DNA of 15,321 nucleotides, from IMG/VR virus record IMGVR_UViG_2703718673_000003. The stretch is one strand, 5' to 3'. Of the stretch, positions 6,001 to 9,000 are shown piece by piece (position 1 is the stretch's first letter; every line of letters begins with the position of its first letter). This stretch comes from a virus (lineage: Duplodnaviria > Heunggongvirae > Uroviricota > Caudoviricetes). Made by a program: the position numbers.

Positions 6001-9000
6001 CACCCGGACACGCTGACGAACCAGTTTCAGGGGGATCCCTTTCACCTGGTTATCTCCCGCAACGGTATTCCCGGCAACCTGCCGGGTGGCAACCGAGCCC
6101 GCTTTCTGTGCCACACGGTTTATCGCCCATGCGCTGGCCTGTGGCACCATACGGGTATCAAGGCTGTTCAGATTGCGGATGGCATTCTCAAGCCCCTTCA
6201 TCCCACACCTCTTTACTCAATAAAGATCATTGGCTTACCGTTAAAGCGTTCATGCCGTGTGACCGTCCATTGTTGTCCGTCATAAACAACGCGATCCCCG
6301 CGCCGTGGGCGGTATCCCGAAGAAAACACCACCAGAGAGACCGCAGGTCCGGACAGAGCATTCAGCTCTGCCAGTGTTTCTCCCGGGATCACAGTCATAT
6401 CGACATCATTAATCGAGGCTGTCTTTCCCATCTTTCTGACCGTGATAGCATCCATACGCGCTGCCAGCCGGGAAAAGGGATCAGACATTGAGTTTTACCG
6501 GCACTTCTTCTGCACTGGTTCCGGCATCTGCCCAGACAACCCCGACCAGCGGATCAGAGCCGCTGTTAGTCAGCTGAACTTTTCCTGACTTCAGATAAAC
6601 CTTCTTACCCGTTTTCATGTCATCCGTTTTCAGCTTAGGCAGCATAAACACACCTTCGGTCATGCCGTCGCCTGTTTCACCCTGTGGAATATCGGTCAGC
6701 GCCACCGCAAAAACATCGCCCACCTGCACCAGATCTCCGCTGCTGATGGCTGCACTGGCAACAATCGCCACCGTTTTTCCTTCTTCTACAAAATTCTTTG
6801 CCATAACTGTCTCCGCACAGCCCCGTTCAGGGGCTGATTTCAGGTACAAAAAAAGCCCTTACGGGCCATCAGAGTTGTTGTCTGCGACGTTTACGCCGTA
6901 CATTTCACCAGACCGCGGTGATCAACTGGCGCGACACCGGCGTCAATACGCACTTTCGTTGTCACGCCATCCACACTGAAGCCCTCCATCTGATCAATAT
7001 ATGGCGTATCCACACCGTTGAGATAAGCCACTTCAATCGTATCGGAGCCTTTTGACGCAGCCAGGTAGAAGGTGGTCTGGCTGTTATCATCAAGACGAGG
7101 CTCTGCAATAACGGTCGCAAAATCTTTCACCGGGTTAATAATACCGGCGTTAATGTCAGCCCCCTTGACACTTGAGGAGCGAATGACCTGGTTAGCAACA
7201 GACTCCATCGCCGTCGGTACCAGTACGAACGCAGGACGAATATTCAGATGACGCTCCCCCTCTTTCTGAACGCGCATCAACTGGCGGGCTTTATCCAGCG
7301 ATGCCACGTCCATTGCAGCGCTCTCCAGTACGTTTGCATGTTTCGCTTTATCGAACAGACTTACATTATCTGTGGAGATTTTCGGGTTAGACGTCAGAAT
7401 GGCATAAACCAGATCGGCAATAGTGGATTTCGCCGCACGGCCCAGTTTCATCGGGACATCGGTCAGCATATTCAGATCATCATTGATAATGGCCTGACGG
7501 GTGATACTGAACAGCTCGCCATAGGTCGCCAGTGCAATAGTGGCCTGTTTATCTCCGGTGGTGACGTATTTATATTCCGCCCCTTCACGCACCTGACGCA
7601 GAGCACTGAAGCCCCCCATACCCACACGATGGGCAATTTTAAAATCAGACAACTGACCTTTCCGCGTCCACTGTTCATAGGTTTCAGGGGCATCTTCCCA
7701 GCCCTGCAGAATGGCTTTGTTCGCAACATCCAGCAGAATATTACCGAAGTCAGACGTACTGTGTGTGAACGCCGCACCGACCATCTGCATCGGGTTATAA
7801 CTGGAAACCCCAATACCCCGTTCAGTCAGTGACATACGGGCATATTCACGCAGGGTCATCCCGTTGTAGACATTATCACGTTCGGTTTTTTCAAATCCGG
7901 CACGCGCCATCAGCGCCTGGCGGATCCCATCCCCCACAAAATTACCGTTTCCGGCATAAATATGAGCCGGGGTATTTTTATTAGATGGCGTGGACTCGCG
8001 CCCCATCTCGTTCAACAGCTTTTCGCGGGCCTGCTCCAGCGAACATTCAGGATCGGCAAGACACTGAGCCTGCAGCGTCTGATAACGCCCGCCAAACATG
8101 GCAAACAGATCATTAATACCGTTTACACGCGCTTTTTGCTCTGCCAGTACCTGCGCACGGATACTGTTTTCATCCACCACAGGTGCTGCTGCCTGCACTG
8201 GCGTCCGGGAGGCTGCAGGTCCATCATCCTGTACGCGTGGAGCACTGTTGCGTGGCGGAGTAATCATGTTTCGAATGGATTCCGGCATCTTTTTAAATTC
8301 CTCTGTACGTTTTGACTGAATACATGCCATTGCCTTAACGGCTGGCGTCACCTGATCAGCAAATCCATGTGCCAGACATTCGGCACCGGACATCCAGGTC
8401 TCATCCGCCAGCATGGCAGCAATTTCATCGGTGGTTTTCCCGGTTTTCTGTGCATAAGCGGGTAACAGAACCGCCTCAACTTTATCGAGCAGGTCGGCAT
8501 AGGTGCGCATGTCCTCCGCATCACCGCCCGTAAAGCCAAATGGTTTATGAATCATCATGAAGGAGTTTTCCGGCATAATGACCGGTTTTCCCACCATCGC
8601 AATGACCGACGCCATTGACGCCGCCACACCGTCGACATAAACGGTAATGGACGCACCATGTGTTTTCAGTGCATTAAAAATGGCGATGCCTTCAAAGACA
8701 TCGCCACCCGGTGAATTGATATTGAGATTAATGTGGGTGATATCGCCCAGTGCATTCAGATCACTGATAAACTGCTTCGCTGTAACACCCCAGAAACCAA
8801 TCTCGTCATAAATATAAATATCCGCGTCACTCTGGTGACCAGCCTGCATCCTGAACCAGGAATTATTCTTCGGACTGGTCGTCGGTGTGCTGCGGCTCCT
8901 GTCGTTTCGTTGCGGCACTGCTGCCTCCTTTATCACTGGCCGGATCGGTATCAAATACCAGATCCAGCTTGCGGTTTTCATCAATTTCGGCCTTGCGCCG

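What the first reader, a model, noticed from the sequence alone, without database searches (positions are those of the whole stretch)
6891..8849. Single fused protease/scaffold/capsid gene in an otherwise lambda-like head module
Terminase, W, portal, FII, Z, U and the tail genes follow lambda closely, but lambda C, Nu3, D and E are replaced by one ~652-aa ORF whose N-terminus is a ClpP-type serine protease (INSPGG, AASMAS, MIHKP) and whose C-terminal half is capsid-sized, followed by a small protein. This is the tripartite capsid gene arrangement described for Salmonella phage Gifsy-2, in which the mature capsid protein is released by autoproteolysis. It indicates a mosaic head module and raises the stoichiometry question of making one protease per capsid subunit.
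Basis: partly seen in the sequence, partly recalled or inferred. Interest (0 to 1): 0.5.

Follow-up and report, generated by a model that had tools for sequence, protein, structure and literature searches.

The report
Gifsy-2-type protease–scaffold–capsid fusion gene
This is a well-known kind of phage gene in which the head-maturation protease, a scaffold segment and the major capsid protein are made as one polypeptide; it is common in E. coli prophages, and the only new point is sequence evidence for a second, internal start that would make capsid subunits without the protease.

Summary
One minus-strand ORF ending at 6891 has a ClpP-type protease domain at the N-terminus and a Mu-gpT/HK97-type capsid domain at the C-terminus. 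A cement (decoration) gene follows it. The protein is 70% identical over 669 residues to the Gifsy-2 tripartite capsid gene product. It scores 980 bits against NCBIfam NF045540 (cutoff 475), and 2,090 of 5,426 complete E. coli genomes carry this DNA. So it is already known.

Corrections:
- The start is probably the GTG at 8918 (675 aa), not the ATG at 8849. A conserved SW[FY] motif lies upstream of that ATG, and the codon is Met in only 34 of 69 homologues.
- The whole packaging and head module is Gifsy-2-like. Only the tail genes are close to lambda.
- ClpP's catalytic Asp aligns with an invariant Glu.

New lead: an in-frame ATG (8288–8286) at the protease/scaffold junction is Met in 69 of 69 homologues. 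An AGGA sits 10 nt upstream, and its wobble base is the most conserved of 613 in the gene. The site is also AU-rich and weakly folded. This suggests a nested 465-aa scaffold–capsid product, as with lambda C/Nu3, which would answer the stoichiometry question. It is untested.

This copy sits beside a frameshifted portal gene.

The parts
6891..8918 (-). Full-length protease-scaffold-capsid gene (675 aa, 73.4 kDa), with the probable GTG start at 8918-8916 and the stop at 6893-6891
   Evidence: ORF list and translation. PGAP uses the same boundaries in identical O157:H7 genomes. NCBIfam NF045540 scores 980.5 bits against a cutoff of 475. 70% identical to the Gifsy-2 gene product.
8924..8930 (-). 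Shine-Dalgarno AAGGAGG, 5 nt upstream of the GTG start and inside the 3' end of the portal gene
   Evidence: Read directly from the sequence. The 'KEA.V' read-through pattern is conserved across Enterobacterales homologues.
8847..8849 (-).
   Evidence: Met in 34 of 69 homologues, Ile in 30, Leu in 4, Phe in 1. The conserved SW[FY] motif lies upstream of it.
8346..8783 (-). ClpP-like (MEROPS S14) prohead protease domain, residues 46-191. Ser101 is at 8618-8616, His124 at 8549-8547, and Glu173 at 8402-8400 (at the position of ClpP's catalytic Asp).
   Evidence: Pfam CLP_protease E 5e-36. NCBIfam Clp_rel_HeadMat scores 216 bits. Alignments to solved ClpP structures. S101, H124 and E173 are invariant in alignment A3, while D172 is Lys in Gifsy-2.
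8299..8303 (-). Conserved SD-like GAGGA (AGGA core) 10 nt upstream of the internal ATG
   Evidence: AGGA is present in all 45 unique upstream windows. Codon 206 is GAG, AAG or CAG in 48 of 48 representatives, against 35-75% G-ending in the 17 other E/Q/K columns. It is the most conserved of 613 wobble positions.
8286..8288 (-). In-frame internal ATG (Met211), the candidate nested start of a 465-aa (50.6 kDa) scaffold-capsid product
   Evidence: Met in 69 of 69 full-length homologues. The surrounding 42 nt fold less stably than the gene average in 27 of 27 lineages and are AT-rich, 61% against 49%. Homology to the second fusion family (NF045541, PHROG 4523) starts here. Function as a start is inferred, not shown.
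8175..8252 (-). Hypervariable Pro/Ala/Gln/Thr-rich linker (residues 223-248) with many indels between homologues
   Evidence: Alignments A1 and A5.
8004..8174 (-). Conserved helical central domain (residues 249-305), the presumed scaffold or 'delta-like' segment
   Evidence: This is the only part of the AlphaFold model with pLDDT 62-82, and it is all helices. Conserved motifs appear in A5. No profile similarity to lambda Nu3 or the HK97 delta domain, so the scaffold role is inferred from position.
6903..7787 (-). Major capsid protein domain (Pfam match, residues 378-672). The mature protein probably begins further upstream, at about residues 310-340; the cleavage site is not determined.
   Evidence: Pfam Phage_capsid_4 E 1.4e-54 and Mu-like_gpT E 3.7e-8. 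A family profile hits solved capsid proteins 8rkc/8rkx (E 1e-11) and 9jod (E 5.5e-10).
6847..6867 (-). Terminator-like GC hairpin plus T-run, 24 nt after the stop codon
   Evidence: Consensus scan and sequence. Annotated as a rho-independent terminator at the same place in phage mEp460. HK97 has one after its capsid gene.
6481..6804 (-). Head decoration / cement protein gene (107 aa, DUF2190)
   Evidence: Pfam Phage_cement_2 E 1.4e-20 and PHROG 122 'head decoration'. 60% identical to the Gifsy-2 counterpart. PGAP boundaries.
8863..10371 (-). Portal gene, broken by a 1-nt insertion in a T-run near 9340-9350. Its 3' end overlaps the start of the fusion gene by 56 nt.
   Evidence: Two ORFs in different frames. 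Alignment with the intact mEp460 portal shows T6 against T5. PGAP calls two portal CDSs in identical genomes.

Best explanation
The region is an intact copy of the Gifsy-2-type 'tripartite' capsid gene. It lies in a lambdoid prophage of E. coli O157:H7.

Domain layout of the 675-aa product (shown by sequence):
- Residues 46-191: a ClpP-fold serine protease with Ser101 and His124. An invariant Glu173 sits at the position of ClpP's catalytic Asp.
- Residues 223-248: a variable Pro/Ala-rich tether.
- Residues 249-305: a helical segment of about 60 residues.
- C-terminus: a Mu-gpT/HK97-type major capsid domain.

Assembly pathway (inferred from the Gifsy-2 cryo-EM work, which could not be read here and is cited from my own recollection of it, and from general HK97 and lambda knowledge):
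- The capsid domains form hexamers and pentamers on the portal, giving a T=7 procapsid.
- The N-terminal parts point inward, like the HK97 delta domain.
- The packaged protease domains then digest the tether, the scaffold and themselves.
- The shell expands as DNA is packaged.
- Trimers of the downstream cement protein bind the threefold sites, as lambda gpD does.

Added inference from this work: the gene is probably read from two starts. The GTG at 8918 gives the full polyprotein. The conserved internal ATG at 8288 gives a protease-less scaffold-capsid protein that resembles HK97 gp5 in layout. The ratio of the two starts would then set how many proteases enter each shell, instead of one per subunit.
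For: Domains: Pfam, PHROG and NCBIfam hits.

Orthology: 70% identity to the Gifsy-2 product over 669 residues, with the same gene order and 45-72% identity for every neighbouring head gene.

Function in live phages: the DNA is 99% identical in plaque-forming or inducible phages including mEp460, cdtI, phi458, Ayreon and Tritos.

Catalytic residues: aligned to solved ClpP structures and invariant across the family.

Capsid fold: a family profile hits solved Mu-GpT-type capsid proteins at E 1e-11. HHpred and Phyre2 results have been published for the 57%-identical MD8 protein (PMC8508860).

Internal start:
- The ATG is Met in 69 of 69 homologues.
- AGGA sits 10 nt upstream in 45 of 45 unique windows, while the amino acid there varies among E, K and Q.
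- The wobble base of that codon is G in 48 of 48 representatives. Comparable columns are 35-75% G.
- It is the most conserved of 613 wobble positions.
- RNA structure is weak in 27 of 27 lineages and the site is AT-rich.
- Relatives with S49 or S78 proteases fused to the same capsid family also carry an SD and an in-frame ATG at the junction.
- A frameshifted relative has its second ORF starting exactly at this Met.
Against: - No experiment here shows proteolysis, the cleavage sites or internal initiation.
- Both AlphaFold runs failed (mean pLDDT 31 and 35), so the HK97 fold rests on sequence profiles alone.
- The central domain has no detectable similarity to lambda Nu3 or the HK97 delta domain.
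- For the internal start, SD-like motifs followed by ATG or GTG occur several times by chance in single genes. By the same score lambda's real Nu3 start is not among the top four, so motif strength alone does not discriminate.
- The junction Mets in the S49 and S78 relatives were picked by eye from the protein sequences before their DNA was read, so that 3-of-3 result is selection-biased.
- Several other Mets are also invariant in the family.
- In distant unfused relatives the Met211 position is Leu in some, so part of the conservation is at the protein level.
- The 49 representatives are phylogenetically related, so the naive probability of 3e-20 is far too small.
- This particular copy lies next to a frameshifted portal gene, so it may never be used to build particles.
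Confidence: 0.9

Rival explanations
1. The gene makes only the full-length polyprotein, with one protease per capsid subunit. The conserved AGGA...ATG at the junction is not a start site. It would reflect protein-level constraint on a conserved peptide (EEFxxMPxxΦ), a relic of an ancestral gene boundary, or some other RNA-level signal.
For: The peptide around Met211 is conserved as protein, and distant unfused relatives keep a similar motif with Leu in place of Met. Chance SD+ATG pairs are frequent in single genes. About 415 copies of a ~37-kDa internal part would still fit inside a T=7 procapsid; this is my own volume estimate, not a tool result. The accessible literature describes a single product only (PMC8508860).
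Against: Protein-level constraint cannot explain a wobble base fixed as G in 48 of 48 representatives while the encoded residue changes among E, K and Q. It also cannot explain why this is the most conserved wobble position of 613, or why the site is consistently AU-rich and weakly structured. A relic with no function should have decayed across lineages that are only 50% identical.
Confidence: 0.4
2. The long ORF is an artefact or a pseudogene fusion: two or three originally separate genes joined by a sequencing error or by decay in a defective prophage.
For: The neighbouring portal gene in this very prophage is frameshifted. Databases contain obviously aberrant 1,159-aa portal-protease-capsid fusions.
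Against: The same uninterrupted ORF is found in isolated, plaque-forming phages at 99% identity. It is also found in at least 69 genomes from Enterobacterales, Pasteurellaceae, Pseudomonas and Shewanella at 50-99% identity, and in most of the top-scoring clusters among the 10,625 representative clusters that match the capsid domain. NCBI curates it as a family.
Confidence: 0.01
3. The N-terminal domain is an inactive ClpP-like fold used only as an assembly or scaffold module, and maturation cleavage is carried out by a host protease.
For: ClpP's catalytic Asp is replaced by Glu. Some phages, such as staphylococcal 80alpha (my own knowledge), rely on a host protease.
Against: Ser101, His124 and the acidic residue are invariant across all homologues examined, including relatives at about 50% identity. 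The domain passes the NCBIfam 'head maturation protease, ClpP-related' model at 216 bits against a cutoff of 120. Stand-alone versions of the domain are the annotated maturation proteases of hundreds of phages.
Confidence: 0.04

Closest known systems
Salmonella phage Gifsy-2 tripartite capsid gene (STM1034.3n in NC_010393; Effantin et al. 2010, Virology 402:355, pmid 20427067; cited via PMC8538268 and PMC12315714, since the paper itself is not held)
   Same: ClpP protease, a central domain of about 200 residues and the capsid protein in one ORF. 70% identity over 669 residues. Same neighbours: portal upstream with overlap, then cement protein, FII-like and Z downstream.
   Different: The variable linker differs in length and sequence. 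Asp172 here is Lys in Gifsy-2. This copy lies in an E. coli O157:H7 prophage with a broken portal gene.
E. coli phages mEp460, cdtI, phi458, Ayreon and Tritos (head gene annotated 'protease/scaffold protein', 'head maturation protease' or 'major capsid protein')
   Same: 99% DNA identity across 6400-9300, effectively the same gene.
   Different: Their portal genes are intact. Their annotations disagree on name and start codon (ATG 652 aa against GTG 675 aa).
Pseudomonas phage MD8 gp5 and the F10-like phages (PMC8508860)
   Same: Same three-in-one architecture, 57% identity, same flanking portal and decoration genes.
   Different: Different host clade. That paper does not mention an internal start.
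Lambda C/Nu3 and Mu I/Z nested protease-scaffold genes (Mu from my own knowledge)
   Same: The protease and scaffold are read in one frame, with a shorter product from an in-frame internal start. The proposed Met211 start would work the same way. The gene sits in the same position, after the portal.
   Different: Lambda uses an S49 protease and keeps D and E as separate genes. There is no sequence similarity to C, Nu3, D or E. Here the capsid protein itself is part of the nested ORF.
HK97 gp4/gp5 (S78 protease, then a delta-domain-capsid fusion)
   Same: The scaffold function is fused to the N-terminus of an HK97-type capsid protein. The putative 465-aa internal product (a 108-aa leader plus about 357 aa) mirrors gp5 (102 + 283 aa; sizes from my own knowledge). 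A terminator follows the capsid gene in both.
   Different: The protease family differs and is a separate gene in HK97. The central domain shows no similarity to the delta domain. A cement protein is used here, whereas HK97 uses covalent crosslinks (per the Gifsy-2 literature).

Membership tests
NCBIfam NF045540 / Gifsy-2-type ClpP protease-scaffold-MCP fusion | Full-length match to the curated family HMM above its cutoff | tested here: met
   980.5 bits against a cutoff of 475; residues 9-651 of the 652-aa form cover model positions 2-651 of 652. PHROG 133 matches end to end.
NCBIfam NF045540 / Gifsy-2-type ClpP protease-scaffold-MCP fusion | N-terminal ClpP-fold (S14) protease domain with catalytic Ser and His | tested here: met
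   Pfam CLP_protease E 5e-36. Ser101 and His124 align to the ClpP catalytic residues and are invariant. Glu173 sits at the Asp position.
NCBIfam NF045540 / Gifsy-2-type ClpP protease-scaffold-MCP fusion | C-terminal major capsid domain of the Mu gpT / HK97 type, by sequence | tested here: met
   Phage_capsid_4 E 1.4e-54 and Mu-like_gpT E 3.7e-8. The family profile hits solved capsid proteins 8rkc/8rkx at E 1e-11.
NCBIfam NF045540 / Gifsy-2-type ClpP protease-scaffold-MCP fusion | HK97 fold of the C-terminal domain, by 3D structure | tested here: inconclusive
   Both AlphaFold2 jobs gave mean pLDDT of 31 and 35 with the shallow alignment available, so no fold search was run.
NCBIfam NF045540 / Gifsy-2-type ClpP protease-scaffold-MCP fusion | All three parts in one uninterrupted reading frame, placed between the portal and decoration genes | tested here: met
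   ORF 6891-8918 has no internal stop. Portal upstream and Phage_cement_2 downstream. Same order as in Gifsy-2.
NCBIfam NF045540 / Gifsy-2-type ClpP protease-scaffold-MCP fusion | Autoproteolytic release of a mature capsid protein; T=7 shell decorated by trimers | not testable with these tools
   Known only from the Gifsy-2 virion work (Effantin et al. 2010), which is not held in the library.
Lambda head module (C, Nu3, D, E) | S49-family protease gpC, and separate gpD and gpE genes | tested here: not met
   No BLASTP similarity of the fusion or the cement protein to lambda C, Nu3, D or E. The protease is ClpP/S14, not S49.
Lambda head module (C, Nu3, D, E) | Nested in-frame internal start giving a scaffold product | tested here: inconclusive
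   A conserved SD-like motif and an invariant ATG at residue 211, with synonymous-site and RNA-structure signatures. There is no expression evidence.
HK97-type head module | S78 prohead protease, and a delta domain homologous to HK97 gp5 residues 1-102 | tested here: not met
   No S78 hit in this protein. The central-domain profile against the HK97 gp5 N-terminus gives hhalign probability 0.1%.

The most novel reading that the evidence does not exclude
The 'single fused gene' is really a nested pair. A conserved internal ribosome-binding site and ATG (8303-8286, minus strand) at the protease/scaffold junction would produce a 465-aa scaffold-capsid protein alongside the 675-aa protease-scaffold-capsid polyprotein. 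The ratio of the two starts would then set the protease dose per procapsid. The same design seems to recur where S49 or S78 proteases are fused to this capsid family. I found no mention of this in the accessible literature, but the key Gifsy-2 paper could not be read.
Probability: 0.5. Interest if true: 0.45.

Novelty: already known. Interest (0 to 1): 0.25.

Why it matters

Practical value:
- It shows that public annotations of this gene are inconsistent. Names in use include 'protease', 'scaffold', 'Nu3', 'portal' and 'major capsid protein', and two different starts are annotated.
- It shows that this O157:H7 prophage has a broken portal gene.

The conserved internal start, if real, would explain how such phages avoid making one protease per capsid subunit. 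It would extend the lambda C/Nu3 and Mu I/Z nested-gene logic to genes that also contain the capsid protein. That is a modest, directly testable point about how capsid assembly stoichiometry is encoded.

Tried and rejected
- Structure prediction. AlphaFold2 was run on the full 675-aa protein and on residues 300-675, each with a 16-sequence alignment at 75-99% identity. Mean pLDDT was 35 and 31, which is unusable, so no fold search was run. Only proteins from the search for homologous proteins may be used for these alignments, and its list held close relatives only.
- Solved structures with a single sequence. The full protein returned only ClpP structures, and the C-terminal part alone gave only weak Mu-GpT hits at E 3e-4. 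A profile built from unfused relatives was needed to reach E 1e-11.
- Central domain. Profile-profile comparison with lambda Nu3 and with the HK97 delta domain found no similarity.
- Synonymous-recoding test of SD strength, sequence by sequence. It was uninformative (median fraction 0.29), because only one two-fold codon decides the motif. It was replaced by column-wise wobble statistics.
- Ranking internal ATG/GTG codons by SD pairing energy in single genes. It did not discriminate, and lambda's known Nu3 start is not in the top four.
- Effantin et al. 2010 could not be retrieved. Searches for any report of an internal start in such genes found nothing relevant.
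Full report
**What is in the window**

All genes in the window run on the minus strand. From high to low coordinates the order is: lysis genes, small terminase, large terminase (10581-12683), a 72-aa W-like gene, portal, the ORF in question, a small gene, an FII-like gene, Z, U, V, G, T and the tape-measure gene.

The DNA from 6400 to 9300 is 100% identical to prophages in many complete E. coli O157:H7 genomes. It is 99% identical to isolated phages including mEp460, cdtI, phi458, Ayreon and Tritos. 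Matches occur in 2,090 of 5,426 complete E. coli genomes.

**Checking the observation**

The ORF ends at 6891 and its frame is open up to 9110.

- Pfam: CLP_protease at residues 23-168 (E 5e-36), Phage_capsid_4 at 355-649 (E 1.4e-54), and a Mu-like gpT hit.
- PHROG 133 matches from end to end.
- NCBIfam NF045540, 'ClpP-like prohead protease/major capsid protein fusion protein', scores 980.5 bits against a cutoff of 475. RefSeq gives this gene the same name.

The small downstream protein is a Phage_cement_2 / 'head decoration' protein.

**The start codon**

- In Gifsy-2 and in Pseudomonas phage MD8 the aligned codon is Ile.
- Among 69 full-length homologues fetched from one-genome-per-species contigs, it is Met in 34, Ile in 30, Leu in 4 and Phe in 1.
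- The motif (N/K/E)SW(F/Y) lies upstream of it. This motif sits downstream of the portal stop codon, so its conservation cannot be due to the overlapping portal frame.
- The GTG at 8918 has AAGGAGG 5 nt upstream and is the start chosen by PGAP.

I therefore place the gene at 6891-8918 (675 aa, 73.4 kDa). It overlaps the portal gene by 56 nt.

**How lambda-like is the module?**

By BLASTP against lambda proteins:
- Z, U and V are 50-55% identical; G and T are 33-38%.
- The large terminase is 25% identical; the portal is marginal (21%, E 0.04).
- The W-like, FII-like and cement proteins give no hit.

Against Gifsy-2, every packaging and head gene is 45-72% identical, and the gene order is the same. 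So this is not a lambda head module with four genes replaced. It is a complete Gifsy-2-type packaging and head module joined to lambda-like tail genes.

**Identity with the Gifsy-2 gene**

The product is 70% identical over 669 residues to the Gifsy-2 composite capsid gene product. That gene is cited as the case where prohead protease and coat protein are fused (PMC12315714), and as a capsid decorated by trimers at the threefold axes (PMC8538268). I could not read the original paper, Effantin et al. 2010. What I state about T=7 geometry and about modelling with HK97 and gpD comes from my own memory of its abstract.

The same three-in-one gene has been described for Pseudomonas phage MD8. There HHpred linked the C-terminal part to the Mu capsid protein (99.9%) and to HK97 (98.6%) (PMC8508860). 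MD8 gp5 is 57% identical to the window protein.

**Anatomy**

*Protease.* Alignments to solved ClpP structures place Ser101 and His124 on the catalytic Ser and His. They place ClpP's catalytic Asp on Glu173, not on the neighbouring Asp172. The residue numbers of the S. pneumoniae triad are from my own knowledge. Ser101, His124 and Glu173 are invariant in an alignment that includes Gifsy-2 and MD8, whereas Asp172 is Lys in Gifsy-2.

*Middle of the protein.*
- After the protease comes a conserved peptide, SKRxEEFxxMPxxΦ+xΦ.
- A Pro/Ala/Gln-rich linker full of indels follows (residues 223-248).
- Then comes a conserved segment at residues 249-305. This is the only part of the AlphaFold model with fair confidence, and it is all helices.
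- This central segment shows no profile similarity to lambda Nu3 or to the HK97 delta domain. Its scaffold role is therefore an inference from its position.

*Capsid domain.* A profile built from unfused relatives plus residues 211-675 hits solved capsid proteins of the Mu GpT type (8rkc/8rkx, E 1e-11; 9jod, E 5.5e-10). Both AlphaFold jobs failed overall (mean pLDDT 35 and 31), so the fold itself was not confirmed in three dimensions.

*Downstream.* A terminator-like hairpin follows the stop codon. It is annotated as a terminator in mEp460, and HK97 has one in the same place.

**How common is the arrangement?**

The capsid domain alone finds 10,625 representative clusters at 50% identity. Most of the best 150 are proteins of 620-790 aa with the match at the C-terminus, which means they are fusions.

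In some relatives the same capsid family is fused to an S49 or an S78 protease rather than ClpP. More distant relatives in Cupriavidus and Azospirillum have only protease plus linker plus a helical domain in one ORF.

**A conserved internal start**

I scanned the gene for in-frame start codons preceded by SD-like motifs and compared four diverged lineages. Only one site had both an ATG codon and an SD-like motif in all four: Met211 (window 8288-8286), at the protease/scaffold junction.

Across the genomic homologues:
- Met211 is Met in 69 of 69.
- All 45 distinct upstream sequences carry AGGA 10 nt before the ATG. The residue encoded by the first of those codons varies among Glu, Lys and Gln, always as GAG, AAG or CAG.
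- Among 49 representatives below 90% identity, that codon is G-ending in 48 of 48. The one exception keeps AGGAG in a shifted register. The 17 other Glu/Gln/Lys columns are 35-75% G-ending.
- Of 613 wobble positions scored, this is the most conserved. The second most conserved lies three codons upstream.
- The 42 nt around the ATG fold less stably than the gene average in 27 of 27 lineages (mean z +1.3). They are 61% A+T against 49% for the gene.
- Homology to the second fusion family (NF045541, PHROG 4523) begins at this point.
- In one draft genome a frameshift separates the protease from a second ORF that starts exactly at this Met.
- Three relatives with S49 or S78 proteases have AGGAG, AAGGAG or GAGGGG 6 nt before an in-frame ATG at their own junctions.

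Together these are the usual signatures of a translation start. Such a start would give a 465-aa (50.6 kDa) protein made of a 108-aa leader and the capsid domain, similar in layout to HK97 gp5.

Cautions:
- Chance SD+ATG pairs are common in single genes, and lambda's real Nu3 start does not rank in the top four by the same score.
- The three junction Mets in the S49 and S78 relatives were picked by eye from the protein sequences before their DNA was read, so that count is selection-biased.
- Other Mets are also invariant in the family.
- The position is Leu in some distant unfused relatives.
- The sequences are related to one another, so simple probabilities overstate the case.
- No expression data exist.

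**Most likely mechanism**

*Shown by sequence:* one ORF encodes a ClpP-type protease with an intact Ser-His-acid set, a tether, a helical segment and a Mu-gpT-type capsid domain. A cement protein gene follows.

*Inferred from Gifsy-2, HK97 and lambda knowledge:* the capsid domains build a T=7 procapsid with the N-terminal parts inside. The enclosed proteases then remove tether, scaffold and themselves. The shell expands on DNA packaging and is stabilised by cement-protein trimers.

*Inferred from this work, at about even odds:* two translation starts produce subunits with and without protease, so the protease dose is set by translation rather than fixed at one per subunit.

**Verdict**

The corrections (start codon, extent of lambda similarity, Glu in the triad) and the internal-start lead are the added value. 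This particular copy lies next to a portal gene broken by one extra T, so the prophage is probably defective.

Noticed in passing
window 9320-10371 and 8863-9225 (minus strand); indel near 9340-9350: The portal gene is split into two frames by one extra base in a T-run (window GAATTTTTTCC against mEp460 GAGTTTTTCC). PGAP also calls two portal CDSs in identical O157:H7 genomes, so the prophage is probably defective for head assembly.
   Followed up: partly
window ~8935-8945 (minus strand); proteins P0005-P0017: At least a dozen database proteins of 1,158-1,159 aa are single portal-protease-scaffold-capsid ORFs. In P0006, the only one read, a 1-nt deletion at 'DTD/PASD' near the portal 3' end shifts the portal frame into the capsid-gene frame. 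Whether this is a real lineage or an assembly error is unknown.
   Followed up: partly
L007 (phage VT1-Sakai, AP000400) 2714-4023: In the Stx1 prophage VT1-Sakai the homologous fusion gene is interrupted by IS629. The two halves are annotated as 'scaffolding protein' and 'hypothetical protein'.
   Followed up: no
window 6847-6867 (minus strand): A GC-rich hairpin plus T-run lies directly after the capsid gene stop, before the decoration gene. It is annotated as a terminator in mEp460, and HK97 has one at the same place. It may lower expression of the downstream head-tail genes relative to the capsid protein.
   Followed up: partly
P0188, P0236 (S49) and P0199 (S78); loci L088, L089, L090: The same capsid family (Phage_capsid_4) is fused in one ORF to S49 or S78 prohead proteases in other metagenomic phages. 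Each has a canonical SD 6 nt before an in-frame ATG at the protease/scaffold junction.
   Followed up: partly
L086 2357-4332 (GCA_000755365.1): In this relative a frameshift separates a 201-aa ClpP protease ORF from a 443-aa scaffold-capsid ORF. The second ORF begins exactly at the Met211 equivalent and keeps AAGGA 10 nt upstream.
   Followed up: partly
window 6213-6488 (minus strand): The FII-position head-tail gene carries misleading names. Pfam PF13856 'Gifsy-2' is described as an 'ATP-binding sugar transporter from pro-phage', and RefSeq calls the gene 'DNA breaking-rejoining protein'. Its position, and a weak Phage_attach hit (E 0.0018, below Pfam's cutoff), point to a head-tail joining protein.
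   Followed up: no
L049 (Pectobacterium) and L077 (Moellerella), central domain; alignment A5: Two lineages lack the whole variable linker and the first part of the helical segment (about 36 alignment columns). That part of the presumed scaffold is therefore dispensable.
   Followed up: no
window 10372-10590 (minus strand): The 72-aa gene in the lambda W position has no gpW Pfam hit (only a sub-threshold DUF6148 match) and no BLAST similarity to lambda W. It is 49% identical to the Gifsy-2 counterpart.
   Followed up: no
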